Shown here piece by piece: positions 2,045-58,737 of a stretch of DNA of 64,000 nt (positions within the stretch are counted from its first letter, which is position 1; each line of letters opens with the position of its first letter). This DNA is from Acidobacteriota bacterium (GTDB lineage Bacteria; Acidobacteriota; Vicinamibacteria; Vicinamibacterales; UBA2999), in contig JACQTK010000142.1 of NCBI GenBank assembly GCA_016210845.1, positions 11,479 to 75,478 on the forward strand, written 5' to 3'. The position numbers and the translations under genes are program-made. The notes beneath the pieces are model-generated. The model was not told the DNA's origin, ran no database searches, and was given only the letters and a program-made list of their open reading frames with translations.

Positions 2045-2065
2045 GCGCGGGTCTCCGGGGGGGTC

Positions 2066-2208
2066 GGACCGCGATACGGCCCTGTACGAGAGCGGCCGTA
2101 TAGCGGTCCCCGCGCGCGGAGCGCGCCAAGAAATACTGGCCAACCAGTCACGGGCCCGGGGTCAGTCTGCTGGTCCATGGGACATCAACCGAGAGTCCGT
2201 GACTGGTT
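2066..2208 (-). repeat. dual-hairpin element, copy C (same family as 9867-10012, 34702-34848 and 58612-58737)
   Basis: Hairpin GGACCGCGATACGGCC...GGCCGTATAGCGGTCC, conserved core CGCGCGGAGCGCGCCAAGAAATACTGGCCAACCAG, then hairpin AACCAGTCACGG...CCGTGACTGGTT. It overlaps the valS 3' end and the annotated nadC 5' extension. Confidence 0.75.
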
Positions 2209-4798: not shown

Positions 4799-4810
4799 TT
4801 CGTGACTAGT

Positions 4811-4876
<66 letters not shown>

Positions 4877-6455: not shown

Positions 6456-6457
6456 GT

Positions 6458-6590
<133 letters not shown>

Positions 6591-6595
6591 CAGCT

Positions 6596-9635: not shown

Positions 9636-10378
9636 TCAGAACCCGGGCTTGAGCGTACCCTTCTCGCGCGCGACCTCCAGCAGGGTCGGATAGAACTGCA
9701 CGAACGTGCGCTCCACGGCGGTGTGCTTCGTGTGGCAGTCGACGCACCTGGCCACGGCCTCACCCGACAACGGCCCCGCTGCGTCTCGGAGCGCCGCCGC
9801 CTGCCCGAAGTTGAAGAACGCCCAGCCCTCGGGGAAGCGCGCGTCCTTCACCTCTGCTTCGATGCCAACCAGCCAAGGGGCTCCGCCCCTTGATATCCCC
9901 CGGAGCCCCTTGGCTGGTTGCCAGCGTTTCTGGCCGCGCTCCGCGCGGCTAGGACCGCTATGCGGTCGGGACAACGAGTACAGAATTCGCGTTACGGGCC
10001 GCATAGCGGTCCAACCAGCTCACCTTGAAAGCGTCCAGTGGTGTTGGGAGGCGTGCCGGTCTGCGAGCGGCGGAACTCGAGCACGAGCACCGTCCCGTCC
10101 GGCCATCGGCCGGTCTGCATGAAGGCGCAGTAGGCCGAGGGATTCACGAAGGTGTTGGTGAAGGCGGGCGGCCCTGCCGGTGTGCCGCCCTCGCCCTCGT
10201 ACGTCAGTCCCAGGCCTGAGCCGAGGAACGGCCACTCGCGGTAGTCGAGCGGCCGCACCAGGTCCGTCCCGTTCATGTACCGCGGCCCGTCGGCGGGTGC
10301 CGACTGCCCGGCAACCGCCACCGCGAAGACCCCGCCGAACAGCAGACCGAGAACACCTGCGGCCGTCGTCATCGTCAC
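9636..10378 (-). pseudogene. cytochrome P460 family protein, split by a 146-bp element insertion
   Basis: The N-terminal fragment is ORF 9992..10378 (signal peptide, DYREWPFLGSG, FTNTFVNPSAY). The C-terminal fragment is in ORF 9636..10004 (VKDARFPEGWAFFNF, CVDCH heme motif). Deleting 9873-10018 joins ...GRFQGE to LVGIEAEVKD... in frame. Confidence 0.8.
9867..10012 (+). mobile_element. dual-hairpin element, copy A (non-autonomous, MITE/REP-like), inserted in the P460 gene
   Basis: AACCAGCCAAGGGGCTCCG...CGGAGCCCCTTGGCTGGTT, then a core, then GGACCGCTATGCGG...CCGCATAGCGGTCC. CCAACCAG occurs at both junctions (9865-9872 and 10011-10018). No ORF of its own. Confidence 0.75.
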
Positions 10379-18111: not shown

Positions 18112-18230
<119 letters not shown>

Positions 18231-18234
18231 TTCT

Positions 18235-19488
18235 TCAGTTCAGCGTCCACAACGCCAGCGACGAGACGTCCTTGACGAAGACCCGGTTGCCGGAGATGAC
18301 CGGCTGGGTCCAGGTCTCCGTATCCGCCAGCTTGTAGCGCCGGACCGGCGACGAGGCGGTTCGCGTCACGCGCGAGATGACCAGCTCGCCGTCCTCCTCC
18401 AGGCTGAAGACCAGATCGCCCGCGGTCTGCATGGCCGCCTGCGCCGCCTGGCGCGGGTCGGAGGTCCACAGTGTCTTCCCCGTCGTCGGGTCGAGCGCGA
18501 AGTATTGCCCCATATTGCGCGAGGTGAGCCCCACGAGCATGTCACCCACAATCACGCCGTTGCTCATCCGGCCTGGCAGGTCGGGGTTCTCCCACGCGGT
18601 CTCCACCACCCACCGAGTGTTCTGGCGCACCGGTCGCACGGCGGTCATCGGCCCGCTGTGTCCCCACGCGATGATCGTCTGGCCGTACAGCACCGGGGTG
18701 ATGGAGTTCGTGAAGTTGGAGCTCACGAACGGCCGCTCCCAGAGCGGCGCGCCGGTGGACACGTCGATGCCCACCAGCTTCCCCTGCGTAATCGCGACCA
18801 GCTGCCGCGTGCCGCCGATCGTGGCGACGATCGGCGATCCATATCCAGGGCCGTCACCGGTCCAGCTCCACCTGGCGTCACCGGTGTTCACGTCGAACGC
18901 GGTGAGCGCGCCCATGTCGTGGCCGCCCACGTGGAAGACCACCAGGTTGCCCTCCACGACCGGCGAGAAGGCGTGGCTCGTGTACATCGGCACGTTGGCC
19001 GAGCCTGGCCTCTGCCACACCTGCTTGCCGCTGGCGGCGTCGAAGGCCGTGACGATCCCCGTCATGCCGATGCTGTACAGCCGGCCGTTGGCGAACACGG
19101 GCGTCGACTTCGGCCCCGGGCCGTGGCGGGCTGCCGCCGAGTTCATCGTGAACGGGGCGGGGTATCCCGTCCGCCACAGCACCTTGCCGCTGGCGGCGTC
19201 GAGCGCGCGCATCGTCTCGTTCTCGCCGAGCCGCGAGAACAGATAGACGCGATCGCCCACGACGAGCGGCGTGGCGTAGCCCAGGCCCGCGTCGATCGTC
19301 CAGCGCTGCGTGAGCCGCTCCGGCCACGACGCGGGAGCCGTGAAGCCCGCGATCGCGCCGTCGCGGTTCGGCCCGCGCCACTGCGTCCAGTCGTTCGCCG
19401 GCCGCTGCGCCCCGCTCGGCCCGGTCGCGCCGACCGCCAGAACCACCACGGCACCTGCCACACGTCCCACAGAATGCATGAATGCCAT
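18235..19488 (-). CDS. secreted PQQ-like (BamB-type) beta-propeller repeat protein
   Basis: Signal peptide, then [11 protein letters not shown] and repeated propeller blades. Confidence 0.8.
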
Positions 19489-32327: not shown

Positions 32328-32387
32328 TGAGGCGGCGGTCACTATAAACCGCCGGGCTCGCGCCACGATCGCATCGCGCACGCGATC

Positions 32388-32470
32388 GCGCACGCTGAAG
32401 CGTGCGCTCTACAGGACCGCCTGTAGAGCGGGGGCTTCAGCCCCCGCGTCGGGGCTTGCCCCCGCGTCGG
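32388..32470. repeat. cluster of three consecutive perfect 8-9-bp GC hairpins with 4-nt loops, plus a short direct repeat
   Basis: gcgcacgc-tgaa-gcgtgcgc, ctctacagg-accg-cctgtagag and gcgggggc-ttca-gcccccgc, then cccccgcgtcgg twice. Confidence 0.8.
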
Positions 32471-32472
32471 AG

Positions 32473-34728
32473 ATGGAAACGCCCATGCCGAGACTAGGTG
32501 CTCTCCTCGTTGGAGTCTTCCTGATTTTCGCCCTTTCCCTGTCGGCGCAGGGCCCCCGCCGCGTCGCCGTCGGCGACTGGCCCGAGCTGCGCGGCCCCGC
32601 CCGCGACGGCATCTCGCGGGAGACCGGCCTGCTCGAGCGATGGACCCTCAACGGGGAGAACTTCCTCTGGCGGGCACCCTACGGCGGGCGTTCGGCGCCG
32701 ATCGTCATGGGCAACCGCGTGTACGTGCAGAATCCGGCGGGTCGCGGCGCGGATCTGCAAGAGCGCGTCATGGCACTCGACGCCGACACGGGCGCCCTCG
32801 CCTGGGAATACCGCTTCAACGTGTTCCAGAGCGACGTGCCGCCGCACCGCATCGGCTGGGCTTCTCCTGCGGCCGATCCGGAGACAGGCACCATCTACGC
32901 CCTGAGCGGAGGCGCCCAGGCGATCGCGTTGAGCCGCGACGGTCAGCTCCTCTGGGAGCGCTCGTTCGGTGAAGAGTTCGCGGCCTTCACCACGCACGGC
33001 GGCCGGACGATGTCGCCGGTCGTGGATGGGGATCTGGTGATCGTGAGCGCTGCGGTGTCGAACTGGGGCACGTCCGCGAATCGCGCGCATCGCTTCATCG
33101 CGCTCGACAAGCGCACGGGCGACGTCGTCTACGTCGCCAGCCCGGGTGGCCGGCCGTACGACACCGCGTACGCCTCGCCGCTCATCACGACCATCGGCGG
33201 CATGCGGCTGCTCATCGCGGGCCTGGGCGACGGCGCCGTTCACGCCATCAAGCCGCAGACGGGCGAGCGCGTGTGGAGCTTCCCCGCCGCGAAGCGAGCC
33301 GTCAACACCGGTGTGGCCGTCAAGGGCAACACGGTGTTCGTGTCGCACGGCGACGAGAACCTCACGGGCACCGAGCTTGGCCTCGTGGCGGCCATCGACG
33401 GCTCGCAGACAGGAGCGATTGAGACGACGACATGGGCCGTGCGAGGCGTGGAGATGCTCTACTCCTCCCCGATCGTCGACGGCTCGCGTCTCTATCAGAT
33501 CGACGGCAGCTCGACGCTCAGGGCGTTCGACACGGAGGGCGGTCGGCAGCTCTGGTCGCAGCGGCTCGGTCTGGCGCAGAAGGCCAACCCCGTCCTGGCC
33601 GACGGCAAGATCTACGTCGGGACCGACGACGGCATGTTCTTCGTCGTGCGGCCGCAGGCCGACCGAGCCGAGGTCCTCAGCCGAGTGGAGCTGCCGAACA
33701 GCACGAACAGCTGCTGCGGTTCCGAAGGCACGCCTGAGCAAATCGTGGCAGGCGCGGCGGTCTCGCGCGGGCGGGTCTTCTTCGTGTCGAGCGACGCGGT
33801 GTACGCCATTGGCTCGCGGCAGGCACGGGCGGCCACCGGATTCGCCGTGGACGAGGCCGTGCAGAGCGGCCAGGGGATGCCTGCCCACCTGCAGGTGTCG
33901 CCGACCGAGCTGATGCTGACGCCTGGCCAGACCGTGAGGCTGCGCGCGCGGCTCTTCGACGATCGGGGCCGGTTCCTCAGGGAGGAGACCGCCGCCGCGT
34001 GGTCGCTCGAAGGCCTGAAGGGCACGATCGCCGACGGCACGCTGACCATCGCCCCCGATCCAGTGGATCAGGCCGGCACGATCACGGCCACGGTGGGCGG
34101 CCTCCGCGGCCAGGCGCGCGCGCGCGTCTCACGCCCGCTGCCGTGGACGGACACCTTCGATGCCTACGCGGACGGCGCCGCCCCGCCCGGCTGGGCCATC
34201 GTCACGGGAAGTCGGCTCGCGGTGGCCACGCTCGACGGCCAGAAGGTGCTGCAGAAGGCGCCGACCGAAACGATCTTCAAGCGCACCCGTGTGTTCCTGG
34301 GGCCGACCACGTGGTCGAACTACACATTCGAAGCCGACGTACGCGTCGCCGAGCGGCGGCGGCAGATGGGCGACGTCGGCATCACGGCGCAGCGCTACTC
34401 GCTCGTGCTGTACGGCACGTCGCAGCGCCTGAAGCTCGAGCCGTGGGAGCCCGAGACGACGCGCACGCTGACAGTGCCGTTCGCGTGGAAGCCCGACACC
34501 TGGTACCGGCTGAAGCTCCGCGTCGAGAACCTGCCGAATGGCCAGGTGCGGGCGCGCGGCAAGGCCTGGCCCGCGGGCGAGCCCGAGCCCGCCGCATGGC
34601 TGATCGACAAGACGGATCCGATCGGCAACCGCCAGGGGGCGCCCGGTCTCTTCGTCGACGCGCAGTGGGGCGCGCACGTGGATAATTTCGTCCTGACGTC
34701 GAACCAGCCAAGGGGCTCCGCCCCTTGA
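32473..34728 (+). CDS. secreted PQQ-like beta-propeller protein with a C-terminal beta-sandwich-like domain
   Basis: Signal peptide and WPELRGPARDG propeller, then a ~200-aa C-terminal region that looks LamG/DUF1080-like by eye (unverified). The last 8 codons and the stop are supplied by a repeat element. Confidence 0.75.
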   Translation: METPMPRLGALLVGVFLIFALSLSAQGPRRVAVGDWPELRGPARDGISRETGLLERWTLNGENFLWRAPYGGRSAPIVMGNRVYVQNPAGRGADLQERVMALDADTGALAWEYRFNVFQSDVPPHRIGWASPAADPETGTIYALSGGAQAIALSRDGQLLWERSFGEEFAAFTTHGGRTMSPVVDGDLVIVSAAVSNWGTSANRAHRFIALDKRTGDVVYVASPGGRPYDTAYASPLITTIGGMRLLIAGLGDGAVHAIKPQTGERVWSFPAAKRAVNTGVAVKGNTVFVSHGDENLTGTELGLVAAIDGSQTGAIETTTWAVRGVEMLYSSPIVDGSRLYQIDGSSTLRAFDTEGGRQLWSQRLGLAQKANPVLADGKIYVGTDDGMFFVVRPQADRAEVLSRVELPNSTNSCCGSEGTPEQIVAGAAVSRGRVFFVSSDAVYAIGSRQARAATGFAVDEAVQSGQGMPAHLQVSPTELMLTPGQTVRLRARLFDDRGRFLREETAAAWSLEGLKGTIADGTLTIAPDPVDQAGTITATVGGLRGQARARVSRPLPWTDTFDAYADGAAPPGWAIVTGSRLAVATLDGQKVLQKAPTETIFKRTRVFLGPTTWSNYTFEADVRVAERRRQMGDVGITAQRYSLVLYGTSQRLKLEPWEPETTRTLTVPFAWKPDTWYRLKLRVENLPNGQVRARGKAWPAGEPEPAAWLIDKTDPIGNRQGAPGLFVDAQWGAHVDNFVLTSNQPRGSAP

Positions 34729-34848
34729 TACCCCCCGCGGAGTCCCTCGGCTGGTTGCCAGTATTTCTTGGCGCGCTCCGCGCGCCCAGGACCGCTACGC
34801 GGGGGCACAACGAGAACACACTCTTCGTTCAGGGCCGCATAGCGGTCC
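34702..34848 (+). repeat. dual-hairpin element, copy B
   Basis: Near-identical to copy A: AACCAGCCAAGGGGCTCCG...GGAGTCCCTCGGCTGGTT, core GCCAGTATTTCTTGGCGCGCTCCGCGCGC, then GGACCGCTACGCGG...CCGCATAGCGGTCC. Confidence 0.8.
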
Positions 34849-37491: not shown

Positions 37492-37537
37492 GAGACACAG
37501 CGCGGCGCGCCGCAACCAAAACGCCGCGCTGTGTCTC
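37492..37537 (+). terminator. perfect 16-bp stem hairpin downstream of the PQQ operon (no U-tract)
   Basis: gagacacagcgcggcg (37492-37507) pairs with cgccgcgctgtgtctc (37522-37537). It starts 26 nt after the stop at 37466. Confidence 0.4.
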
Positions 37538-37759
37538 CAGAGACGCTGTGACACAGGTGCTACCAACCCCGAGAATCGGCCTGAATAATCTGCGCGTGTG
37601 GCGTCGATTTTCGGGGTTCGTAGCACAGAGGCACGGAGAACTCTTTGCGCAGGGCGCTGCGGGCCCAATCCGCCAGTGTTGGCCGCCTGCATGGCTACCT
37701 CGGGACGGCGGTCCAATCAATGCTGGTTCGGCCGCTGGAACGAACATCGGGGCTTTGGT

Positions 37760-38892: not shown

Positions 38893-40461
38893 GTGCAAGA
38901 GTCGCCTGCGGTGAGCCGCGGGGCGCCTCATACCTTGGTGCCGCTTGACAGATCCGATCAGTCACGTATATTCGCAGGAGCGGTGAGAAGCAGGGACACT
39001 CTCCTCGTCCTGGTCGCGGCCGTTGCACTCGGCGTCGTCGTCGCCACTGGCGTGGCAGCGCAGTCGCCTCCCGCCGACCGGACCGCGCAGCAGCACGCCG
39101 TTCTCCGGCTGCAGAACGACGTGGCCGCGCTGGAGCTGTTCAGGCCGGCCTTCCCGTTCTGGCGCCACATCTTCACCATCCCCGATGGCGCCGTGATCTA
39201 TGGCAGCGCGATCGACGGCCGCCTGCTGGCCACGTTCCCCCTCAACGGCAATTGGGTGCGCGACGCCGTCTGGAGTGACGACTCGCTGGCGGGCGCGCTG
39301 GCAGGGCACCGCCTCCCCCCGAGGCTGTCGCAGAGGCGCGACGAGGTGGCGCGGCTGCTCCAGGAATCGGCTGGCCCCGTGCTGCACAATGCCACGCGCG
39401 GCCTCTCGCTCCTGCCCAACGAGCGTCGCTACGCCGCGTTTCTGGACGAGTGGGGCGCCATCTACGAGCGCTTCGCCCTGCCCGCCGACATCGGCCTGGC
39501 GCAGGCGGTCGTCGAGTCCGGGCTCAGCGGCAGGGCTCGCTCGGAGGCGAGGGCGATCGGCTTCTGCCAGTGGCTGATCGCGAACTGGAACCGGCTGAAG
39601 CGCCTCTCTCCGCACGTCATCGAGGGCTACAACCAGACGACGCAGGCGCCGTACTGCGCCGCGTACCTCACCATCCTCGCCACCAAGTACGGCAGCTTCA
39701 TTCCCGCCCTCTCGGAGCACCACACCGGGGGCACCAACGTCGGCCGGACGCTCATCAACGGCGAGCGGCTTGGGGGTGTGGACGTCCGCGAGCGGTACTT
39801 CCTCGGCGCCGAGTTCGCGCGCGACCTGCGCAGCCTGTCTCCGGGCCGGTACCGGGACGTCTATGGAAGCTACGGCCCGCGGTCGTTCTTCTATGCGGAA
39901 ATGGTGTTCGGCAACATGGCGAACGTGACGCGCCTGCGGACGGAGGTGCCGCGGTCGAAGATCTTCGCGATGCGGACGCGCCGCGCCCTGCCGCTGGCCG
40001 AGGTCACGCGGCGGACGGGGCTGTCGACCGACGAGGTGCGGCGGTTCAACCCAGCGCTCGTCCGGAGCGTCCCCGCGGGCGCCACCATCTACCTGCCCCG
40101 GTACGTCGAGGCGTTCGGCTCCGACGTCTCGTTCTGGCACCGGCCGCCGAGCGCGGCGTACTCGCAGGCGCTCGAGGAGTTCGTCCGACTGGATGTGCCG
40201 CTGGAGCGGTGGGACGATCGGGCGTTCGATGCGGTACTGACCGACTTCCGCAGGCGGTTCGCCGCCACCCGGACGGAGGAGGGCACGGTGATGGCCACGA
40301 CGCTCGCCTTCGTGCTGGAGGATCGCCGCACCAGCGGGCAGGCGCAGATCCTCGCCGACTTCCGGACCAACCCGCGCGTGCTGCGGCTGTTCGACCGGGC
40401 GCGCATGGAATGGGACAGCTTCCTTCTGTCCAGCGCGGCCGTGCCCACGAGTCTCGAGTGA
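38893..40461 (+). CDS. membrane-bound lytic transglycosylase (SLT domain plus LysM-like domain)
   Basis: SLT catalytic region GLAQAVVESGLSGRARSEARAIGFCQW and a LysM-like LAEVTRRTGLSTDEVRRFNPAL...GATIYLP. The start is ambiguous (GTG at 38893 or 38983). Confidence 0.75.
   Translation: MQESPAVSRGAPHTLVPLDRSDQSRIFAGAVRSRDTLLVLVAAVALGVVVATGVAAQSPPADRTAQQHAVLRLQNDVAALELFRPAFPFWRHIFTIPDGAVIYGSAIDGRLLATFPLNGNWVRDAVWSDDSLAGALAGHRLPPRLSQRRDEVARLLQESAGPVLHNATRGLSLLPNERRYAAFLDEWGAIYERFALPADIGLAQAVVESGLSGRARSEARAIGFCQWLIANWNRLKRLSPHVIEGYNQTTQAPYCAAYLTILATKYGSFIPALSEHHTGGTNVGRTLINGERLGGVDVRERYFLGAEFARDLRSLSPGRYRDVYGSYGPRSFFYAEMVFGNMANVTRLRTEVPRSKIFAMRTRRALPLAEVTRRTGLSTDEVRRFNPALVRSVPAGATIYLPRYVEAFGSDVSFWHRPPSAAYSQALEEFVRLDVPLERWDDRAFDAVLTDFRRRFAATRTEEGTVMATTLAFVLEDRRTSGQAQILADFRTNPRVLRLFDRARMEWDSFLLSSAAVPTSLE
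40351..40461 (+). repeat. left copy of the 111-nt direct repeat (last 36 codons plus stop of the lytic transglycosylase gene)
   Basis: Aligns with 51833-51943. A 56-nt core is identical (40369-40424 = 51851-51906), and both copies end in a TGA stop. Confidence 0.9.
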
Positions 40462-40483: not shown

Positions 40484-41310
40484 TATCCGATCGAGACCCA
40501 CCCGCAGCGCGAGCAGGCCGACGAGGAACAGCAGCATCTGGAGCGGGAGGACCCACCGGGCCCACTGGGGCCAGGGGATCCCGGCCAGCGCGACGACGCC
40601 CATCAGCACCGCGTTGGTGGGCACGATCATGTTCGTGAATCCGTCGCCCATCTGAAACGCCAGGACGGCCGCGTGACGCCCACCGGATCCGAGAGCGGCG
40701 CCATCAGCGGCATCGTGAGCGCCGCCTGCCCGCTGCCGGACGGCACGAAGAAGTTGATCGCGGTCTGGGCGGCGAACATCGCCATGGCCGCCGTCGCCGA
40801 GTTCGTGCCCTCGAGCGCCGAGGCCATGGCGTGCAGAATCGTGTCGATCACCTGGCCGCCCTGCAGCACGATCAGAATGCCGCGCGCGAGCCCGATGAGC
40901 ACCCCCGTCGGGGCGAGCTGACGCACGCCGTCCATGAAGGCGGCGGCCGTGCCGTTGCCGTCGAGCCCGCCGGCCGCGCCCATGATCACGCCGAGCGCGA
41001 TGAAGAGCGCCGCGATCTCGACGATGTACCAGCCGAAGCCTCCCTGCCCCGCCGGGAGCACGCCCCACACGAGCACCGCGAGACCCGCGCAGAAGATCGC
41101 CAGCACGGCCTGATGCCGCCGCGTGAACGCGGCCTCGAGGCCCGTCAGGTGCAGGCCCTCGCGCCGCTTCACCTCGTCTATCGCATAGGTCGGGCTCTTC
41201 ATCGGGTCCCGCCGCACGCGGTGGGCGTGCCTCATCACGAAGGCGATGGTGAGGGCGGTCGTGACGAGCCAGAGGCCGGCGCGGAACCCGGCGCCCGAGA
41301 ACGGCGGCAC
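40484..41310 (-). pseudogene. YfcC-family membrane transporter fragment (5'-truncated, frameshifted)
   Basis: ORF 40627..41310 (…FFVPSGSGQAALTMPLMAPLSDPVGVTR) loses frame near 40675. The continuation AAVLAFQMGDGFTNMIVPTNAVLMGVVALAGIPW... is in the frame of track ORF 40046..41332. Only about 280 of the ~460-500 aa expected remain. Confidence 0.6.
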
Positions 41311-41845: not shown

Positions 41846-42198
41846 TCGCGTTCCTGTGGGACGAGAGCGCCAATGAAGACGTGTTGCGCGCCTGGCGGCA
41901 CGACATGCCCAACTGCGACGTCCTTACCGTTCATGAGGCGCAGCTCTCCGGGGTCAGCGACGACGAGATCGCCGACTGGGCGCGCGCACATGATCGTGTC
42001 ATCGTGACCCAGGACCGCACCACGATGCCCGGCGTCGTCGTCCGTCGCATACGGTCTGGACAATTCGTACCCGGGATCGTGGTGATGGACTTGACACAGT
42101 TGTCGCCAGGCGCCGCGGCAGAGGAGTTGGCCCTGATCGCAGAGGCAAGTCTCCCCGGCGAGCTGGCCAATCGCGTCGTATTCCTCCCGCTGCGCTAG
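41842..42198 (+). CDS. DUF5615/PIN-like protein (putative toxin partner of DUF433)
   Basis: 118 aa, FLWDESANEDVL...DDEIADWARAHDRVIVTQD, in the usual DUF433-DUF5615 gene order. Confidence 0.55.
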   Translation: MIAFLWDESANEDVLRAWRHDMPNCDVLTVHEAQLSGVSDDEIADWARAHDRVIVTQDRTTMPGVVVRRIRSGQFVPGIVVMDLTQLSPGAAAEELALIAEASLPGELANRVVFLPLR

Positions 42199-42207
42199 AG
42201 AGAGGCC

Positions 42208-42693
42208 TCAGCGCGAGACTCGGACTTTGTCTGTCTTGGCCAGCCCCGCTCGCCTACCGTCACCAGCCGCAAGCAGCCCCCGAGCGCGATAGGCACTCAG
42301 CGCAGCTTCGAGCTCGGCCGCCACGGCGCGGCCGAGCGCCGCGGGCGCCAGCACCTCCGCCTCAGCCCCGAACTGCATGACCCATCGCTGAATCTCGCCC
42401 AAGCCGGCAATCCGCATCCGTAGCACACATCCGCCATCGAGCAGACCTTCAACACGCGCGGTGCTGTGCCACTTGCGCTCCCGTATCCACCGTGCCTGCC
42501 TGGGCGTGAACCGAATGACGACGTCTACTGGGCGCCCGCCCTTCTCGATCGCAAAGGCCGCGGCGAGGTACGCGCGCGGATCGAAGTCGCTCGGAATCTC
42601 GAAACTCTCGGTGGTGATCGTGACACGCCGAATGCGGTGCACTGCGAAGTCTCGGACCGCCGCGCGCCTCTCGTCCCAGGCTGCTACGTGCAT
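42208..42693 (-). pseudogene. WYL-domain regulator, C-terminal part only (HTH and first half missing)
   Basis: HVAAWDERRAAVRDFAVHRIRRVTITTESFEIPSDFDPRAYL is the distal WYL-domain pattern, followed by a WCX-like tail. There is an in-frame stop upstream and only ~200 bp before the divergent STAND gene. Confidence 0.55.
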
Positions 42694-42896
42694 AGGCTGC
42701 GTCGCCGGCTTCGACGGCCCGGTGCCATCGCGCCGCCATCTGCGCGCCGCGCCGCATCCTCACCCAGGGATGTAGACGTTTCTTGCGAGCCTTTGCCATA
42801 CTCTGGATTTCCGGCGGGCAATTGTACTTCTTGACGAGCAGTTCGCCGCCGCGCGCCGGTCTGGCTCTGAGCGGACTCTTGTACACAGCGGGTGAG

Positions 42897-45665
42897 ATGG
42901 ACGGATCTGGGCGTACGCGAAACGAATGGCGTCACCTGCTGGCTGGCCAACTACGCCGTGCCAAACGAAGACTCAAGGAAGAACTCGACGAGTCCACTTG
43001 GCGTTCCTCTAGGTACGGAGCCGCCAAGCTGCCAGAGGTTTTGAGGGGTTTTCCCCAACTCCACGACGACTGGCTTTCTTGCCGGAGGTGCAACGACCAG
43101 TCTGCCCGTGATTTCATCGAAGGTTGTTTGCTGAGGGACACTGACGGACCACGGCGCACGGCCGACAGAGTGATCTCCGCGAATTACCAGTCCTCCTTTC
43201 GAAGCGACAGCGACATCCTGCCCCGGCGACATTTTTGGTGTCAGGATCTTAGCACGTTGCCAGTCATCGAGGACTGGCACACTGGTCGAGAGATCGAGCT
43301 CGCCGCAATTAAGGATCTCATTGACAGCGTCCGTGTGCGGGGGGGCGTCGTCGGAATTGTCGGACGTGGCGGCACGGGGAAAAGTGTCTTTGCCGGTCTG
43401 CTGGTTCATCACCTCTATGGGCACCGCGAAAGTGTCGTATTCGTAGACGCCAAGAAGTACCCCACTGCCGAACAGATTCTCCAACAACTGTTGCGCCAAC
43501 TCGGTGCAGCGGAATCTTCTGTACGGGGTGTTTCTGACTTGCGGGATTCGCTGGAGCGGTGGGTCGAAGGTCGACAGTGGACCTTCCTGGTTGATGCTGT
43601 GAACGAAATGCGGCCTCCTTTTTCGACGGCCTGGTTGCCGCGGCTGACTCCTGGCAACGTCATGGTCGTCGTTCTTCAGCCCCAGGAGTGGCTGATTCAG
43701 GCGATGGACTTCTGGGGAACATGGGCGCGGTACCCCCTGCGGAAGATGGCGCGATCGAGCGTGCGCAAGTGGCTGAAAGCCGCGCACCCGGTTGAGTACG
43801 ATGAGCTCGAGCGGCTGGGCGGATCCGCGATCGATGAAATGCTCGAACGGACGGATGGGTACTTGCCGGACGTGAGTCAATACTCTGAACGTCTTGTCCG
43901 GGAGATACGGGCTGCGCGCGCGAGCGGCCGCGATCCGCATTACGTCGACTTCGATTTCTCGGTGCCCGGATTGCCCGAGCGGGAGCGAGGTGGGCAACTC
44001 TGGAATCGCATACTCGCCGGCGCCGATGACGCCGAGATGATGAAGGAGTTCCTGTCATACCTCTTCTGCGCCCGGGGTCTCCCAGGCATCGTGATGGCAA
44101 CGCTTCTCTCGCGACGATTTGGTCGTTACGTGTCGATTGATGACGTTCAGGACTTGAGGCGAAACGCCAGGGGGGCGATCGATGAAGGCCCGGTGCTGCA
44201 CCACACCGTGTGGTTGTACCTGGCCTCCGTCCTTGACCAGCAGGACATCGCGAAGCGGCATCGCGACATCTTCAAGGCTCTCAGGCGCAGCGACGCGTAC
44301 TGGGTGGAACAGGCTACAACGCACTTGATGGTCTCCGACATCTCACATCACGAACGCATGACCGCACTGACCGATCCCGAATTGCTCTCTCGACGTCTGC
44401 GAACGCCCGGATTTGGCGTCATTCACGGAGAGGCACTCAGGAACGAGTTCTCCCGCGCCGGAACCGAGGAAGAGCGGCGCAAGGTGGCCGCCAGGCTAGG
44501 ATGCCGGTGGCGCAGAGAGGTCGAGCGACGCCCCTTTTCCGCAGCAGAGTACGACGAGCTCTTGGATCTTCTCGAGGTCGCTGGACTGCCAGGATTCGCC
44601 AGTCTGGCCGCGTTCGTCGCCGACCGCGCCTTTCGACGTACGACGAAACCTAAGTATCTCCAGCGCTGTGGTTGGATTCGCTATCAGGCGCTGGACCAGT
44701 GGGACAGGGCCCTTCGCGACATGGTCAACGCGTCCGAGCTGTTTGGCGACACGTCGGTCGAGGCGGCCAGGTGCAACCGGCTTCGGGCCTTGGCGCTCTT
44801 CGACATGGGCCGACGCGAGGAGGCCAAACGCTGGGCGCGAGCCAGCCTCAAGACGTTCGACAAGCTCGGGTATAGGCGCGATGCAGCGCGCGCGCGGGAA
44901 ACCCTCGGAGTCATCCTCGATGCTGAGGGGCGATGGGATCTCTCTGTTGAACGCTATAGAGACGCGGAACGCCAGTTCGACAGAGATCCGGTGGACAAGC
45001 TGCGAGTGCTGCTGAATCGCTCAATTGCAACACTGTTTCTCGAGGGAATCGAACGAGCCTGGGCGGATCTAAAGGCCATTGAGAACCCCATCATGGACAC
45101 CGGCGATCATCAGCTTGCCGACTATTTCCACGTAAACTGCTGCGTGATCGCACTCCTTCGAGAGAATCCCGCGGAGTTTGGGCGCCATGCCGAGCGGGCC
45201 GCCGGAACGACAGAGGATTGGCTTCGCGACTCACTGCACGAGAACCGAGCCGTTGCGGTCTGGCGATTCGACAAGAATCCGTCAGCAGCACTCAAGGAGT
45301 TCAACCGGCTCAAGCGCAATTTCGCCAGACAGAAGGATGCCTGGGGCCTTATCGACAACAGTCTCAATGCAGGGTTCGTCCATGTTGATTGCGGTCGACA
45401 GACCGAGGCCCGCCGTAACTTCACGCTCGCCTACAAGCTGAGCAGGGCGCGTCACTACCCTGTGGGATACGGTCTTGCCTGGAGAGGACTGCAACTGTGC
45501 AATGAGATGCCAACGGGCGACGCACGAATGGCGAGGTACTGGTATGACAAGCGCCTCGACCACCTTTTTGGACCACGAATTCCGTTCGTGCCCCTGTACG
45601 TGCTTCTTGCCGAATCCTTGAGTATGGACGTACGGGGCTATGGCCTTTACGCAGTTGAGCCTTGA
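42897..45665 (+). CDS. STAND-class P-loop NTPase with a C-terminal TPR-like array and an uncharacterised ~190-aa N-terminal domain
   Basis: Walker A GIVGRGGTGKSVFAG and Walker B WTFLVDAVNE. The C-terminal ~350 aa are helical repeats (…ARCNRLRALALFDMGRREEAKRWARASLKTFDKLGYRRDAARARETLGVIL…). The track start at 42783 is a TTG, so I prefer the ATG at 42897. Confidence 0.75.
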   Translation: MDGSGRTRNEWRHLLAGQLRRAKRRLKEELDESTWRSSRYGAAKLPEVLRGFPQLHDDWLSCRRCNDQSARDFIEGCLLRDTDGPRRTADRVISANYQSSFRSDSDILPRRHFWCQDLSTLPVIEDWHTGREIELAAIKDLIDSVRVRGGVVGIVGRGGTGKSVFAGLLVHHLYGHRESVVFVDAKKYPTAEQILQQLLRQLGAAESSVRGVSDLRDSLERWVEGRQWTFLVDAVNEMRPPFSTAWLPRLTPGNVMVVVLQPQEWLIQAMDFWGTWARYPLRKMARSSVRKWLKAAHPVEYDELERLGGSAIDEMLERTDGYLPDVSQYSERLVREIRAARASGRDPHYVDFDFSVPGLPERERGGQLWNRILAGADDAEMMKEFLSYLFCARGLPGIVMATLLSRRFGRYVSIDDVQDLRRNARGAIDEGPVLHHTVWLYLASVLDQQDIAKRHRDIFKALRRSDAYWVEQATTHLMVSDISHHERMTALTDPELLSRRLRTPGFGVIHGEALRNEFSRAGTEEERRKVAARLGCRWRREVERRPFSAAEYDELLDLLEVAGLPGFASLAAFVADRAFRRTTKPKYLQRCGWIRYQALDQWDRALRDMVNASELFGDTSVEAARCNRLRALALFDMGRREEAKRWARASLKTFDKLGYRRDAARARETLGVILDAEGRWDLSVERYRDAERQFDRDPVDKLRVLLNRSIATLFLEGIERAWADLKAIENPIMDTGDHQLADYFHVNCCVIALLRENPAEFGRHAERAAGTTEDWLRDSLHENRAVAVWRFDKNPSAALKEFNRLKRNFARQKDAWGLIDNSLNAGFVHVDCGRQTEARRNFTLAYKLSRARHYPVGYGLAWRGLQLCNEMPTGDARMARYWYDKRLDHLFGPRIPFVPLYVLLAESLSMDVRGYGLYAVEP

Positions 45666-46671
45666 GGACATGCGCTGCATCAATCCTGCTCGCGTGGCGT
45701 ACGCGCATGACCTGATGGCAGACGAGTACGACCAATGCGACGACCTCTGGTACCCGTGGCTCTTCGCTCAGATCCACGATTTCATCGTCGCTGACTTAAG
45801 CAGGGACCCACCCGATTGTAGGGTCGCCATTGATGCAGGATGTGGAACTGGCTTTCAATCGTTTCTTCTTGCTCAAGCGGGATTCCAAGTACACGCCTTC
45901 GATCTCGCGAACGCACTTGTGGCGCGCGCGCGTGACAAGTCCGACACTTTCGCGGTAACACCCTTGCAGTCACCCCCCCTTTTTCAGGCCGACGTTGACC
46001 TGGCTTGGCTCGCAAACCATCACAAGAGGCTACGCGAGGCACTCGAATCGCTGCGACAGGGCCGTCGCGTCGTTCCACCGCGCTTCCGTACGGGAGACGT
46101 GACGACGTTCGACTACGCCAGTCTCGTTCCGAATGTCATTGTGTGCTGTGGGTCGGTGCTGAGCTTCGTTGACGATTACTGTGCCGTTCTTCAGAAGATG
46201 GCCCACGCCTTGGCACCTGGCGGACGCATTTATCTCGAAGTTGAGCAGCGCGTAAACGGCGACTTGGTATGGCCGGCCATTGACAATCTACTGGGTGGCC
46301 GCATCGGATACCAGCAGACTTGGCGCGGCTTGCTGCGAAACCTATTCGCTAGACCGGGACGGGCAGTCCGAATCGATTACCCTTTTGAACTCCATACCGG
46401 CGAGGAGGTCATCCTTCCGATGTGGTTGTTCTCCGTCTCCGAACTACATCGACTGTTCGACTCCGTGGACCTCCGGGTTCGCGACAGATTGGGAATCCAC
46501 CACGTAACGAACATCCTGCCGAGTCCCTGGTTGCACCGAAGTCCCCCATCGAGGCGGACGATGACGATCTTCGAGCCGTTACGCGTTGCCGACGGCAGCC
46601 TTGGACGAGTATGGCCGTTTGCCCGACTGGGATGTAGCGTGATGTACTCGTTGGAAAAACCCCTCAGCTGA
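45640..46671 (+). CDS. class I SAM-dependent methyltransferase
   Basis: Motif I AIDAGCGTGFQSFLLA and post-I HAFDL. It overlaps the STAND gene's 3' end by 26 nt; an alternative ATG lies at 45670. Confidence 0.75.
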   Translation: MAFTQLSLEDMRCINPARVAYAHDLMADEYDQCDDLWYPWLFAQIHDFIVADLSRDPPDCRVAIDAGCGTGFQSFLLAQAGFQVHAFDLANALVARARDKSDTFAVTPLQSPPLFQADVDLAWLANHHKRLREALESLRQGRRVVPPRFRTGDVTTFDYASLVPNVIVCCGSVLSFVDDYCAVLQKMAHALAPGGRIYLEVEQRVNGDLVWPAIDNLLGGRIGYQQTWRGLLRNLFARPGRAVRIDYPFELHTGEEVILPMWLFSVSELHRLFDSVDLRVRDRLGIHHVTNILPSPWLHRSPPSRRTMTIFEPLRVADGSLGRVWPFARLGCSVMYSLEKPLS

Positions 46672-46791
46672 CCTCACCAGAGGGCTCGCGTCCGAGGCCC
46701 TCCCTGCAAAGTCGATCCCGGCCTCTGCGTCTGCTGCGTCTGGGATCCTTTGGTGCAATGGTTCCGCGACCTCTCAATAGGAGTGGAACCA

Positions 46792-47112
46792 GTGATTCAG
46801 CACACCTCCGAAGCTCAGGCCCCGAAGTCTTCCAGACGCGGACGGCCCCCGCTGCCAGCGGAACGCAAACGTGTACACCGGTTCAATTTGCGCGTCACGC
46901 GGGCTGAACTGGACGCCATCTATCTCGCCGCCATTCGACACAGGGTTGACGCCACATGCCTCGTGCGGGCCGTCATCCGGCAATTCCTGGTCAGGCCCGG
47001 TGACCTGGATGCAGGCAACGAGCTGTCCGTTGCGGCCGAACACCTGCAGACACGCCCACCAGAGCCCACGGCAACTCGAATCAAGATCACATGTCCAAAC
47101 TCGACCGGCTGA
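46792..47112 (+). CDS. ribbon-helix-helix DNA-binding protein (MobC/CopG-like)
   Basis: RRGRPPLPAERKRVHRFNLRVTRAELDAIYLAA resembles the MobC/RHH N-terminal pattern. The GTG at 46792 lies 8 nt after TAGGAG. Confidence 0.5.
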   Translation: MIQHTSEAQAPKSSRRGRPPLPAERKRVHRFNLRVTRAELDAIYLAAIRHRVDATCLVRAVIRQFLVRPGDLDAGNELSVAAEHLQTRPPEPTATRIKITCPNSTG

Positions 47113-47167
47113 TTGCGGTGCCCGGAAACTCTCCTTCTCTCGCGGCAGACGCAGAATCGGAGACCCT

Positions 47168-47527
47168 ATGAAACAGACGCAGCTTCGATTGCACCGTCGG
47201 TTGTGCATGAATTGCCATCAGCGCGACGCGAAGTTCCGATCCCGCGGCGGACGGGTGAGGAGCGATCGGACCCACCCCCGCTTGTGCTTCGCCTGCTACC
47301 GATCTCTTCGCGACCGGGTCCGTGCGATGCGACTGGTGGCGACCGGGAGGGCGATACATCCATGGGCCCCAGGTTGTCAGGAACGCAAGCTGTCTTCCGT
47401 CAACAACAGTAGGAGAAGTCGCCATGCTTCTGATCGCCCTCTTGTTGGTCCAGCCCCTCAGCGCCCCGTTGGGCGCGGTGTCCCCAGGGCCCCCGGCCAC
47501 TATGCCCGGCGTCGTCAGACACGCTGA
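47168..47527 (+). CDS. possible small zinc-ribbon protein
   Basis: MKQTQLRLHRRLCMNCHQRD...PRLCFACYRSL has two CxxC pairs, with GGAGA 5 nt upstream. The 3' third overlaps the next gene by 104 nt and looks like off-frame sequence. Confidence 0.3.
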   Translation: MKQTQLRLHRRLCMNCHQRDAKFRSRGGRVRSDRTHPRLCFACYRSLRDRVRAMRLVATGRAIHPWAPGCQERKLSSVNNSRRSRHASDRPLVGPAPQRPVGRGVPRAPGHYARRRQTR

Positions 47528-51832: not shown

Positions 51833-51943
51833 CTGGCCGACTGCCGCACGAACCCGCGCGTGCTGCGGCTGTTCGACCGGGCGCGCATGGAATGGGACAG
51901 CTTCCTCCTCTCCGGCGCCGCCGACACCACGAGCCTCGAATGA
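51833..51943 (+). repeat. right copy of the 111-nt direct repeat (orphan 3' end of the lytic transglycosylase gene)
   Basis: Encodes LADCRTNPRVLRLFDRARMEWDSFLLSGAADTTSLE*, versus LADFRTNPRVLRLFDRARMEWDSFLLSSAAVPTSLE* at 40351-40461. Confidence 0.9.
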
Positions 51944-53229: not shown

Positions 53230-53751
53230 TTATTCCACCACCGCGAGGACACGGCCGGCTTCCACCGACATGCCCTCCTTCACCGCGATCTCCTTGACGC
53301 GGCCGGCCTTCGGCGACCCGATCTCGCTCTCCATCTTCATCGCCTCGACGACCACCAGTCCCTGGCGCACCTTCACCTCGTCGCCTGGAGCGACCAGCAC
53401 GCGGACGACCTTTCCTGGCATCGGCGCGAGGACCCGCTGCTCGCCCTGGGCGCCACCGAGCCCTTCCCCGCCGCCGCGGCGGAGACGCCGCCCGTTGACG
53501 ACGGCCCGCAGGAGGCCGTCGCGGGTGCGCACCAGCAGCTCGCCCCGCTCGGCGCCGTCCGCCATCTCGACCTCGTGGCAGGCGCCGCCCGCGTTCAGCA
53601 TGATGAGCGACAGCGTCGAGCGGTCGACCTCGCGCGCGTCCACCAGCTGCTCGACACCGTCGATGCTGATGCGAAACCGGCCGGCGTGTCCGGCCACCGG
53701 GTCGACCGCCACGGTCCGCAGCTTGCCGTTGACCTCCACCTCGAACGTCAT
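53230..53751 (-). CDS. biotin carboxyl carrier protein domain protein
   Basis: The C-terminus [13 protein letters not shown] contains the biotinyl-lysine motif (AMKM). Confidence 0.85.
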
Positions 53752-53807
53752 TGGACCGCTCTACGGCTCCTCATAAGAATCCTGGACCCCTCGTACAGCC
53801 CCAACCA

Positions 53808-58611: not shown

Positions 58612-58737
58612 CTCGCCCCGCCGCGGCAAGTGGAGCCACCAGGCGCCCCGGCGCGCGGAGCGCGCCAAAGCAGATACTGGCCAACCATCCAAGGGCTCGT
58701 CTCGGGAGGACGAAGATACGCGAGCCCTTGGATGGTT
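58612..58737 (-). repeat. dual-hairpin element, copy D (divergent, second hairpin degenerate)
   Basis: CGCGCGGAGCGCGCCAAAGCAGATACTGGCCAACCATCCAAGGGCTCG...CGAGCCCTTGGATGGTT. It lies in the divergent promoter gap between the CoA ligase and the CoA transferase. Confidence 0.65.

What the first reader, a model, noticed from the sequence alone, without database searches (positions are those of the whole stretch)
34702..34848. Four-copy ~146-bp dual-hairpin element family with compensatory stem substitutions
The copies are at 2066-2208, 9867-10012, 34702-34848 and 58612-58737. They share a core, CTGGTTG(G)CCAGTATTTCTTGGCGCGCTCCGCGCGC. On one side is a conserved hairpin, GGACCGCTATGCGG...CCGCATAGCGGTCC. 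On the other is a hairpin whose sequence differs between copies (AACCAGCCAAGGGGCTCCG, AACCAGTCACGG, AACCATCCAAGGGCTCG). In every copy both arms of that hairpin changed together, so the structure is preserved rather than the sequence. The elements donate coding sequence to neighbours: the valS C-terminus, the nadC N-terminal extension, and the stop codon of the 32473 gene. I do not recognise the element as a described MITE, REP or ncRNA family.
Basis: seen in the sequence. Interest (0 to 1): 0.65.

Follow-up and report, generated by a model that had tools for sequence, protein, structure and literature searches.

The report
Hairpin-rich miniature mobile element family
The four repeats are real copies of an abundant, previously undescribed small mobile DNA element of soil Acidobacteriota (Vicinamibacterales). 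It inserts next to the short sequence AACC, has split one gene in this window, and has rewritten the ends of two others.

Summary
The window has three full copies (2066-2208 -, 9867-10012 +, 34702-34848 +), one 5' half (58650-58737 -) and a degenerate 3' remnant (~53751-53800 -).

A covariance model finds about 80 more copies in 68 loci from Vicinamibacterales MAGs, up to five per 8 kb. Each copy has three hairpins, not two, around a conserved core (GCCAGTATCTCTTGSCGCGCTCCGCGCGS). Covariation is strong: 97% of cells pair against 30-38% when partners are slid, and 15 of 30 pairs show double changes.

It is a mobile element, not an RNA gene. Copy 9867 sits inside a cytochrome P460 gene, and removing exactly 146 nt restores an intact 198-aa ORF. 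Of 81 orthologous valS-nadC junctions examined, none carries the element. 79 homologues plus a syntenic empty locus show that the element's "AACC(AG)" start is native host sequence.

The mobile unit is therefore 5'-AG[C/T]C...GCGGTCC-3' (~139-143 nt). It inserts 3' of AACC in a fixed orientation, with no terminal inverted repeats and no target duplication. The flanking AACC pairs with an internal GGTT.

This logic resembles HUH single-strand transposition (IS200/IS605-derived PATEs, REP/RAYT, IS91). No transposase was found, so membership is untested. There is no match in Rfam, plasmids, phages or the literature.

The parts
34702..34848 (+). Full copy plus its 4-nt target. 34702-34705 is host AACC, part of the native Asn-Gln codons AAC CAG. 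The mobile unit is about 34706-34848 (143 nt), with the breakpoint ambiguous within CCAG. HP1 is 34702-34756, the linker GCCAGTATTTCTT is 34757-34769, HP2 is 34770-34786 and HP3 is 34789-34848. The upstream PQQ-propeller ORF (32473-34728) now ends inside HP1 with the tail PRGSAP*.
   Evidence: (147 bits)
9867..10012 (+). Full copy (146 nt) inserted inside a cytochrome P460 gene on the - strand. HP1 is 9867-9919, HP2 is 9933-9949 and HP3 is 9952-10012. CCAACCAGC is present at both junctions (9865-9873 and 10011-10019).
   Evidence: (162 bits)
9636..10378 (-). Cytochrome P460 gene split by the element into 10378-10013 and 9866-9636. Deleting 9867-10012 gives a 198-aa ORF that matches Pfam PF16694 positions 1-124 of 125 in a single stretch. 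It is 70-77% identical to the best-listed intact homologues, which are about 192-244 aa and mostly 195-201 aa.
2066..2208 (-). Full copy between valS and nadC. 2205-2208 (AACC on the - strand) is native valS sequence. The mobile unit is about 2066-2204 (139 nt). HP3 is 2066-2109, HP2 is 2111-2127 and HP1 is 2142-2208. valS (2162-4798) now ends in HP1 with the tail VTDSRLMSHGPAD*. The old valS tail and stop survive as non-coding sequence at 2045-2065, just upstream of the nadC GTG at 2044.
   Evidence: (93 bits)
58650..58737 (-). 5' half only: HP1 at 58683-58737, then the linker, then HP2 at 58650-58666. There is no HP3. It lies in the divergent intergenic region between an AMP-ligase gene and a CoA-transferase gene.
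   Evidence: (67 bits)
53751..53800 (-). Degenerate remnant of the 3' end. TTGGACCGCTCTACGGCTCCT... is the reverse complement of ...AGGAGCCGTAGAGCGGTCCAA. It lies in a 56-nt intergenic gap. The coordinates are approximate.

Best explanation
This is a family of non-autonomous mobile DNA elements that is abundant in some Vicinamibacterales (Acidobacteriota).

Anatomy. The mobile unit is about 139-143 nt, 5'-AG[C/T]CAAGG...GCGGTCC-3'. It comprises:
- a long variable hairpin (HP1) whose loop carries the conserved CTTGATATCC;
- a conserved single-stranded linker, GCCAGTATCTCTT;
- a short GC hairpin (HP2);
- a long hairpin (HP3, GGACCGCTATGCGG...CCGCATAGCGGTCC) with a conserved loop, ACGAGTACARAATTC.

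Shown:
- It inserts in one orientation immediately 3' of the host tetranucleotide (A)(A)CC, usually followed by A.
- It has no terminal inverted repeats.
- Two of the three reconstructed sites show no target duplication. The third has a flanking repeat (see evidence against).
- Both junctions are C|A steps (AACC|AG... and ...GGTCC|AR).
- The host AACC pairs with the element's GGTT at the foot of HP1.

Inferred:
- This is the logic of HUH single-strand or rolling-circle transposons (IS200/IS605 and their PATE derivatives, REP/RAYT, IS91). A flanking tetranucleotide that resembles the element's own 3' end is read by pairing with an internal guide next to a terminal hairpin. The hairpins are the protein's handles.
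- That would explain why stems covary while loops and the core stay constant.
- The enzyme would act in trans and has not been found.

Consequences in this window:
- one gene is destroyed (P460);
- two genes have new C-terminal tails (valS and the PQQ-propeller gene);
- the valS-nadC overlap (GTGA) is broken.
For: Family and structure:
- About 80 copies in 68 MAG loci, up to five per 8 kb.
- 97.0% of cells pair, against 29.9-38.1% with slid partners. 15 of 30 pairs show double changes, and 0 of 500 shuffles reach the observed values.
- An independent MAFFT/RNAalifold alignment gives 13 of 30 compensated pairs.
- A second family keeps the same core and the same three-hairpin plan but has completely different stems: L023:5061-5203, and a copy nested in L007:1899-2208.

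Mobility:
- The P460 gene is interrupted, and removing 146 nt restores the frame, a contiguous Pfam match and a gapless alignment to the empty orthologue L069.
- None of 81 orthologous valS-nadC junctions carries the element, and 80 of those loci (about 250 kb) contain no copy at all.
- Copies within one genome are about 85% identical. Between genomes the figure is mostly 74-80% (up to 83% for window versus CAZDLW).

Breakpoints:
- 79 homologues of the PQQ protein end in ...NQ*, and the syntenic empty locus L152 reads AAC CAG TAA. AACCAG is therefore native.
- Removing AGTC..GGTCC (139 nt) restores the valS tail EEEPTPPETRA*, compared with AEEPAPVPETRA* in L072. Also removing AACC leaves no stop.
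- Excising AG..GGTCC gives an in-frame stop within 2-9 codons in 7 of 9 informative copies. Excising AACC..GGTCC gives 10 or more codons or no stop in all seven, and 18 or more or none in five of them.
- Left flank: A 71%, A 75%, C 100%, C 100% (the CC is partly fixed by the anchoring pattern, but it pairs in 65-67 of 67 copies). Right flank: A 82%, then A 66% or G 26%.
- The left and right dinucleotides do not correlate within a copy, so they are not a target duplication.
- A tandem junction GGTCC|AGCC occurs in L055.

Literature on the comparison families:
- IS200/IS605 elements insert 3' of a tetra- or pentanucleotide, and their cleavage sites are chosen by guide tetranucleotides beside the hairpins (PMC5027513, PMC8266576).
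- IS91/IS801 use tetranucleotide targets (GAAC, GGAC, CAAG, CGAC) and produce miniature one-ended fragments (PMC3189936).
- RAYTs cleave at CT or CA next to REP hairpins (PMC8266576).
Against: - No HUH or any other transposase gene was seen in the window or in about 500 kb of loci. Genes lying between closely spaced copies are housekeeping genes. No long element bounded by HP1 and HP3 was found.
- In IS608 both guide and cleavage site lie 5' of the hairpin. Here the target and the guide flank the hairpin and simply extend its stem.
- HP1 and HP3 do not resemble each other, unlike most IS200/IS605 ends.
- Copy 9867 carries an extra AACC (146 nt inserted, with the 9-nt CCAACCAGC at both junctions). 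That needs either a 4-nt duplication or a 'long form' of the element.
- GGTT never varies in the sample, so guide-target covariation could not be tested.
- The excess of G among non-A bases at the two flank positions (14 of 19) fits G.T wobble, but also plain transition bias.
- The junction data fit a recombinase with a CC crossover core equally well.
Confidence: 0.6

Rival explanations
1. The element moves through a double-stranded circular intermediate. A conservative site-specific recombinase (IS110-like DEDD, serine or tyrosine) exchanges strands at a CC core shared by the circle junction (...GCGGT-CC-AGCC...) and the target (AA-CC-AR). Target choice might be aided by an RNA transcribed from the element (bridge-RNA-like).
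For: - The breakpoints can only be placed 'at or within CC' at both junctions of copies 34702 and 2066.
- The L055 tandem junction GGTCCAGCC equals the predicted circle junction.
- Copy 9867's target shares 9 nt (CCAACCAGC) with the joined ends.
- 11-12 of about 60 copies have CC just 5' of AACC, and two have GTCC.
- The element is a multi-hairpin, roughly 145-nt unit with conserved unpaired segments.
Against: - No such recombinase was seen.
- Most targets share only AACC-A with the junction.
- The stems show no G:U versus A:C asymmetry, which argues against a functional RNA from one strand.
- There is no promoter-like site.
- The stems are long perfect helices, not internal guide loops.
Confidence: 0.2
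2. The copies are REP/BIME-type elements kept by the host for a function, such as mRNA 3'-end stabilisation, transcript punctuation or a protein-binding site. They would be dispersed by a domesticated RAYT.
For: - They are mostly intergenic or at gene 3' ends, and many start right at a stop codon (TGA|ACC).
- There is a 2:1 bias for the same orientation as flanking tandem genes (26 vs 13), a hand tally from the heuristic gene calls.
- HP3 looks like a REPIN: two inverted 14-mers around a spacer.
- Cleavage at C|A is known for a Marinomonas RAYT (PMC8266576).
- Loops and core are conserved, as expected for binding sites.
Against: - There is no conserved GTAG 5' of the palindromes. The HP3 5' arm (GGACC...) is usually preceded by TA, so the local sequence reads CTAGG/TAGG.
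- The unit is a fixed 140-nt three-hairpin composite, not a 20-50-nt palindrome.
- One copy inactivates a gene.
- The element is absent from every orthologous site examined in relatives, so it is not a conserved regulatory feature.
- No RAYT was seen.
Confidence: 0.12
3. The copies are genes for a structured small RNA, or a cis-regulatory RNA family.
For: - Strong covariation in three helices with conserved loops.
- Very stable folds.
Against: - No Rfam match.
- Copies occur in either orientation relative to transcription and inside a coding gene.
- G:U-type and A:C-type mismatches are equal, 26 vs 23.
- No promoter or terminator.
- The element is absent at every orthologous site examined.
- Truncated halves are common.
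Confidence: 0.05

Closest known systems
PATEs / IS200-IS605-derived miniature elements (Y1 HUH 'peel and paste' single-strand transposition)
   Same: - Hairpins at both ends, with no terminal inverted repeats. No target duplication in two of the three reconstructed sites.
- The left end always lies 3' of a specific tetranucleotide that stays in the flank.
- The flank tetranucleotide (AACC) resembles the element's 3' terminus (GTCC).
- An internal tetranucleotide next to the left hairpin (GGTT) is complementary to the target.
- Re-use of the same target would explain the tandem copies.
   Different: - No TnpA or TnpB was found.
- The guide lies 3' of the hairpin, so target plus guide simply lengthen the stem. 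In IS608 both lie 5' of the hairpin.
- The two end hairpins are unrelated in sequence.
- The element has an extra conserved core plus a GC hairpin in the middle.
- The target is G+C-rich (AACC), unlike TTAC or TTGAT.
REP / REPIN / BIME elements with RAYT (TnpA_REP)
   Same: - High copy number.
- Extragenic palindromes near gene ends.
- HP3 resembles a REPIN.
- C|A cleavage step, as for the Marinomonas RAYT.
- Stem structure matters more than stem sequence.
   Different: - No GTAG motif.
- A fixed 140-nt composite of three different hairpins.
- Orientation-specific insertion next to AACC.
- One intragenic, gene-disrupting copy.
IS91 / IS801 family (Y2 HUH rolling-circle transposition) and its miniature one-ended fragments
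   Same: - Target tetranucleotide of the GAAC/GGAC type (here (G)AACC, with GGACC/GGTCC at the other end).
- No target duplication (with the copy-9867 exception) and no true inverted repeats.
- Truncated fragments that keep one intact end.
- From memory only: the HP1 loop CTTGATAT resembles the CTTG|ATA nick site of phiX174/pC194-type Rep proteins.
   Different: - The nick-like motif sits in a hairpin loop inside the element, not at an end.
- No IS91-like ORF or ends were seen.
- Both 5' and 3' halves occur as orphans.
Classical bacterial MITEs (Correia, ERIC, RUP, Nezha and similar)
   Same: Small, non-coding, abundant, structured, and able to fuse with or disrupt ORFs.
   Different: These have terminal inverted repeats and fixed-length target duplications. 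This element has neither.

Membership tests
Classical TIR-MITE | Terminal inverted repeats | tested here: not met
   The 5' end is AG[C/T]CAAGG (or AACCAGCC). The reverse complement of the 3' end is GGACCGCTATGC. There is no inverted identity. The hairpins are local, not end-to-end.
Classical TIR-MITE | Target-site duplication of fixed length | tested here: not met
   The three reconstructed sites show flanking identities of 4, 2 and 9 nt that are part of the conserved ends. Left and right dinucleotides do not correlate across about 60 copies.
IS200/IS605-derived (PATE) | Hairpin (imperfect palindrome) at or near both ends, no TIR | tested here: met
   HP1 lies at the 5' end and HP3 at the 3' end. 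Both covary.
IS200/IS605-derived (PATE) | Left end always 3' of a specific tetra- or pentanucleotide, no duplication (PMC5027513) | tested here: met
   The flank is (A)(A)CC in essentially all copies. It is shown to be native at copies 34702 and 2066. Copy 9867 has an extra AACC.
IS200/IS605-derived (PATE) | Cleavage sites chosen by guide tetranucleotides 5' of each hairpin (PMC8266576) | tested here: inconclusive
   GGTT is complementary to AACC but lies 3' of HP1. It never varies, so no covariation test was possible.
IS200/IS605-derived (PATE) | A cognate Y1 transposase (TnpA), with or without TnpB, carrying the same ends somewhere in the genome | not testable with these tools
   None was seen in 64 kb plus about 500 kb of loci. 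Whole carrier genomes could not be scanned.
IS200/IS605-derived (PATE) | Insertion bias for the lagging-strand template | not testable with these tools
   This needs complete chromosomes with a known origin. Only a 26:13 co-orientation with flanking genes was seen, a hand tally from the heuristic gene calls.
REP/BIME-RAYT | 20-50-nt palindrome preceded by a conserved tetranucleotide, usually GTAG (PMC8266576) | tested here: not met
   There is no GTAG. The HP3 5' arm (GGACC...) is usually preceded by TA, so the local sequence reads CTAGG/TAGG. The unit is a 140-nt composite.
REP/BIME-RAYT | Exclusively extragenic | tested here: not met
   Copy 9867 lies inside a P460 ORF. Several copies overlap the last codons of genes.
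REP/BIME-RAYT | RAYT gene flanked by its REPs | not testable with these tools
   Genes between closely spaced, inverted copies are housekeeping genes.
IS91/IS801 miniature fragments | Target tetranucleotide GAAC/GGAC/CAAG/CGAC abutting one end, with a similar tetranucleotide at the other end (PMC3189936) | tested here: inconclusive
   The left flank is (G)AACC: G is the commonest base at position -5 (42%) and 5'-GAAC precedes the final C. The other end is GGTCC, the reverse complement of GGACC. The register differs by one base.
IS91/IS801 miniature fragments | Sequence derived from an IS91-family end | not tested
   No IS91-family sequence was available for comparison. Blastn against plasmids found nothing.
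Any Rfam RNA family | Score at or above the family's gathering threshold | tested here: not met
   There are 0 hits over the window. Only chance-level hits appear in E-value mode.

The most novel reading that the evidence does not exclude
The element may belong to a so far unrecognised class of hairpin-guided mobile DNA. In that class the target would be chosen by base pairing with an internal guide (GGTT:AACC), and the conserved core would recruit an unknown trans-acting enzyme. Alternatively, its roughly 145-nt multi-hairpin transcript could serve as a guide or bridge RNA for a TnpB-, IscB- or IS110-type protein encoded elsewhere. The second family, with the same core but entirely different stems, hints at a broader superfamily with modular, possibly programmable, arms.
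Probability: 0.12. Interest if true: 0.75.

Novelty: new variant of a known kind. Interest (0 to 1): 0.45.

Why it matters
- Vicinamibacterales are abundant soil bacteria known mostly from MAGs. An element present about every 13 kb in this window, and up to five times per 8 kb in some loci, breaks assemblies. It also creates false ORF extensions and pseudogenes that annotators will misread; here these are the P460 split, the altered valS and PQQ tails, and a spurious nadC extension.
- The family gives a clean natural data set of stem covariation with conserved loops.
- It has a precise AACC|A insertion rule that should allow the unknown transposase to be identified.
- It may extend the range of HUH-type single-strand transposition to a new element architecture and a G+C-rich target.

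Tried and rejected
- Rfam, gathering and E-value modes: nothing.
- Blastn of a copy against plasmids and phages, and a pattern scan of viral contigs: nothing.
- Full-text search for five element sub-sequences, and for Acidobacteria plus MITE: nothing relevant.
- Autonomous parent. nhmmer with 5'- and 3'-half profiles found no half-pairs separated by an ORF. All-against-all blastp of about 1,200 ORFs found no multi-copy paralogues. Pfam on genes between close copies and on the window's low-GC island found no transposase.
- Exact-protein look-ups of two window proteins, to find polymorphic strains: not on record.
- Terminal inverted repeats, a 2-nt 'AA' duplication, and 4- or 9-nt duplications were considered. 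They were rejected because flank dinucleotides do not correlate and the identities differ between sites.
- An integron attC reading (AAC...GTT at the hairpin base) was rejected. The R-box consensus GTTRRRY is not met and the copies are dispersed.
- Sigma-54 or sigma-70 promoter and IHF-site readings of the core were rejected by eye and.
- The L038/L062, L050/window and L032/L064 orthologue pairs were too diverged at the junction to give further empty sites.
- Three pattern hits (L026, L042, L068) are chance matches without the element.
Full report
**1. Observation**

The shared core pattern GGTTG(N)CCAG-N9-13-CGCGCTCCGCGCG occurs exactly four times in the window and never in 100 shuffles. All four fold far better than shuffled controls on both strands, with z from -3.8 to -9.4. 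Rfam has no match at gathering thresholds, and only chance-level hits in E-value mode.

**2. Anatomy**

In the orientation of copy 34702 each full copy contains:
- HP1, a 53-67-nt hairpin (AACCAGCCAAGGGGCTC...GAGCCCCTTGGCTGGTT) with a conserved loop motif CTTGATATCC;
- a conserved unpaired linker, GCCAGTATCTCTT;
- HP2, GGCGCGC-TCC-GCGCGCC;
- HP3, GGACCGCTATGCGG...CCGCATAGCGGTCC, with a conserved inner loop ACGAGTACARAATTC.

There are therefore three hairpins, not two. The copy at 58612-58737 is only HP1, linker and HP2 (58650-58737). A further degenerate 3'-end remnant lies at about 53751-53800.

**3. The family elsewhere**

65 of them come from MAGs that are nearly all labelled Vicinamibacterales or Acidobacteriota. 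A few carry other labels that look like binning or labelling errors. The remaining three hits are chance matches without the element.

A covariance model built from 44 copies finds about 80 copies in these 8-kb loci, up to five in one locus (L023).

Copies within one genome are about 85% identical (maximum 96%). Between genomes the figure is mostly 74-80%, up to 83% for window versus CAZDLW. That suggests lineage-specific amplification that is not very recent.

By contrast, 80 metagenomic loci carrying nadC orthologues at 75-84% identity (about 250 kb) contain no copy. The distribution is patchy.

**4. Covariation**

On 67 copies, 97.0% of cells form standard pairs, against 29.9-38.1% when the 3' partners are slid by 1-3 columns. 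15 of 30 pairs have changes on both sides, and 0 of 500 shuffles reach any observed measure. That alignment is model-fitted. An independent MAFFT/RNAalifold analysis gives 13 of 30 compensated pairs.

Clear examples:
- the HP2 closing pair is G:C in 35 copies and C:G in 31;
- HP3 position 174:294 is G:C in 45 and A:T in 13;
- an HP3 subfamily reads GCCCGTTATGCG...CGCATAACGGGC.

A second family has a near-identical linker and HP2 and the same three-hairpin plan, but different stems. It is seen at L023:5061-5203 and as a copy nested inside HP3 of L007:1899-2208.

G:U-type and A:C-type mismatches in the stems are equal, 26 vs 23. There is no sign that one RNA strand is under selection.

**5. It is mobile**

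- *Copy 9867.* Pfam shows that the two small ORFs flanking copy 9867 are the N- and C-terminal halves of one cytochrome P460 domain. Deleting exactly 9867-10012 (146 nt) gives a 198-aa ORF with one contiguous P460 match, positions 1-124 of 125. That ORF is 70-77% identical to the best-listed intact homologues, which are mostly 195-201 aa, and aligns without a gap at the junction. It also aligns gaplessly with the DNA of an empty orthologue.
- *Copy 2066.* L053 and all 80 metagenomic valS-nadC junctions lack the element. There, valS ends on the nadC start (GTGA or ATGA overlap).
- *Copy 34702.* The syntenic locus L152 has the two PQQ-propeller genes 2 nt apart and no element.

**6. Where exactly it inserts**

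- 79 homologues of the upstream PQQ protein end in ...NQ*, and L152 reads CCC AAC CAG TAA. The AACCAG that looks like the element's first six bases is therefore the native Asn-Gln. The inserted DNA is 143 nt (AGCC...GGTCC), with the breakpoint ambiguous within CCAG.
- At valS, removing AGTC...GGTCC (139 nt) restores the tail EEEPTPPETRA*, close to AEEPAPVPETRA* in L072. Removing AACC as well leaves no stop.
- Together these two sites place both breakpoints at or within the CC of AACC|AG and GGTCC|A.
- Across copies whose upstream ORF runs into the element, excising AG..GGTCC gives a stop within 2-9 codons in 7 of 9 informative cases. Excising AACC..GGTCC gives 10 or more codons or no stop in all seven, and 18 or more or none in five of them.
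- Flank composition: left flank A 71%, A 75%, C, C; right flank A 82%, then A 66% or G 26%. The left and right dinucleotides do not correlate within copies, so they are not a duplication.
- There are no terminal inverted repeats.
- The host AACC pairs with the element's GGTT, forming the last four base pairs of 'HP1'.
- Copy 9867 is the exception. It has AACC on both sides (146 nt inserted, with CCAACCAGC at both junctions). This fits either a 4-nt duplication or a 'long form' that carried AACC from its donor and landed at GCC|AA. The 11-12 of about 60 copies preceded by CC fit the second reading.

**7. Mechanism**

*Shown:* orientation-specific insertion 3' of a tetranucleotide, without terminal inverted repeats and, at two of the three reconstructed sites, without target duplication; hairpins at both ends whose structure is conserved by covariation.

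*Inferred:* this is the signature of HUH single-strand or rolling-circle transposition.
- In IS200/IS605 the left end always inserts 3' of an element-specific tetra- or pentanucleotide. Cleavage sites are selected by pairing with guide tetranucleotides beside the end hairpins (PMC5027513, PMC8266576).
- IS91/IS801 use GAAC, GGAC, CAAG or CGAC and throw off miniature one-ended fragments (PMC3189936).
- RAYTs cut CT or CA next to REP hairpins (PMC8266576).

Here AACC (flank) and GTCC (3' end) are similar, both cuts are C|A, and GGTT is a plausible guide.

I could not find the enzyme:
- there is no half-pair separated by an ORF;
- there are no multi-copy paralogues;
- there is no transposase among the neighbours or in the window's low-GC island.

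The same junction data are also compatible with a recombinase that exchanges strands at a CC core via a circular form, and the L055 tandem junction GGTCCAGCC would be that circle junction.

I put 'non-autonomous mobile element' at about 0.9 and 'HUH-type mechanism' at about 0.4.

**8. Against an RNA-gene reading**

- Copies lie in both orientations relative to flanking genes: 26 same, 13 opposite, 11 convergent and 21 divergent contexts. This is a hand tally from heuristic gene calls.
- One copy lies inside an ORF.
- None of the orthologous sites examined carries the element.
- There is no promoter or terminator.
- There is no strand asymmetry in mismatches.

**9. Effects in this window**

- P460 is a pseudogene.
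- ValRS has lost its last 7 residues and gained VTDSRLMSHGPAD.
- The valS-nadC overlap is replaced by a 139-nt spacer. The old tail now serves as the nadC leader and keeps GGAG 9 nt before the GTG at 2044.
- The PQQ protein has gained PRGSAP.

**10. Source and novelty**

The PQQ protein is 100% identical to an NCBI MAG protein ('Acidobacteria bacterium') on a 79,345-bp contig.

Nothing similar was found in Rfam, plasmids, phages, IMG/VR or the searchable literature. Dfam and ISfinder could not be queried.

I classify it as a new variant of a known kind: hairpin-ended, non-autonomous elements without terminal inverted repeats or a regular target duplication.

Noticed in passing
window 4799-4869, 6445-6515, 6521-6605, 18131-18243: There are tandem heptamer arrays, (GCAGTAG)n and its complement (CTGCCTA)n, in several intergenic regions. 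The arrays at about 4.8 kb and 6.5 kb are inverted relative to each other and bracket two genes. Two opposed arrays abut at 6445-6605. Their function is unknown.
   Followed up: no
L023:5061-5203 (-); L007:~1979-2150 (+), nested in the HP3 5' arm of the L007:1899-2208 copy: A second element family ('B') has the same HP1-linker-HP2-HP3 plan and a near-identical linker and HP2 (GGCAGTATCTTCTTGCCCCGCTCCGCGGGC). Its stem sequences are entirely different and its loops are its own. This suggests a wider superfamily.
   Followed up: partly
window 42000-47500: A low-GC island (60-63% against about 68-70%) encodes a 960-aa STAND-type NTPase (AAA_16/NB-ARC plus TPR) and a SAM methyltransferase. Beside them lie a WCX-domain protein and a DUF5615 protein. 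It may be a horizontally acquired defence-like locus.
   Followed up: partly
window 32385-32470 and 37494-37617: There are other clusters of short G+C-rich hairpins in intergenic regions, for example GCGCACGCTGAAGCGTGCGC, CTCTACAGG..CCTGTAGAG and GGGGGCTTCAGCCCCC. They are unrelated in sequence to the element. The second cluster gave weak model hits (24 and 18 bits) on both strands.
   Followed up: no
window 40351-40461 vs 51833-51943; gene 40627-41310: A 111-nt direct repeat is 88% identical between sites 11.5 kb apart. Separately, the gene at 40627-41310 is a DcuC-family transporter ORF covering only profile positions 192-399 of 461, so it is probably truncated.
   Followed up: no
L003-L062 (CAZDLW...), L051 (DATBVX...) vs L030 (DATCJA...): MAG CAZDLW is labelled 'uncultured Bifidobacteriaceae' but carries dozens of copies of this Vicinamibacterales element at about 65% GC, so the label is probably wrong. 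A contig from the 'Steroidobacteraceae' MAG (L051) matches a Vicinamibacterales MAG contig (L030) at 99.5-100% wherever the two were compared, which points to cross-binning.
   Followed up: partly
L060, L050, L062, L016, L006 (CAZDLW loci): Another interspersed repeat of about 130 nt (77-92% identical) lies near several element copies in the same MAG. It is unrelated to the element studied here.
   Followed up: no
L023:5408-6221: A 166-aa DNA-alkylation-repair ORF matches only profile positions 55-178 of 213. It is bracketed by two inverted copies of the element, so it may be a gene truncated by insertions.
   Followed up: no
L006:176-219 and L039:752-802: Two independent 3'-end fragments of the element, from different MAGs, both start at the same internal point (GGGACAACGAGTAC...). 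This hints at a preferred internal break or alternative cleavage site.
   Followed up: no
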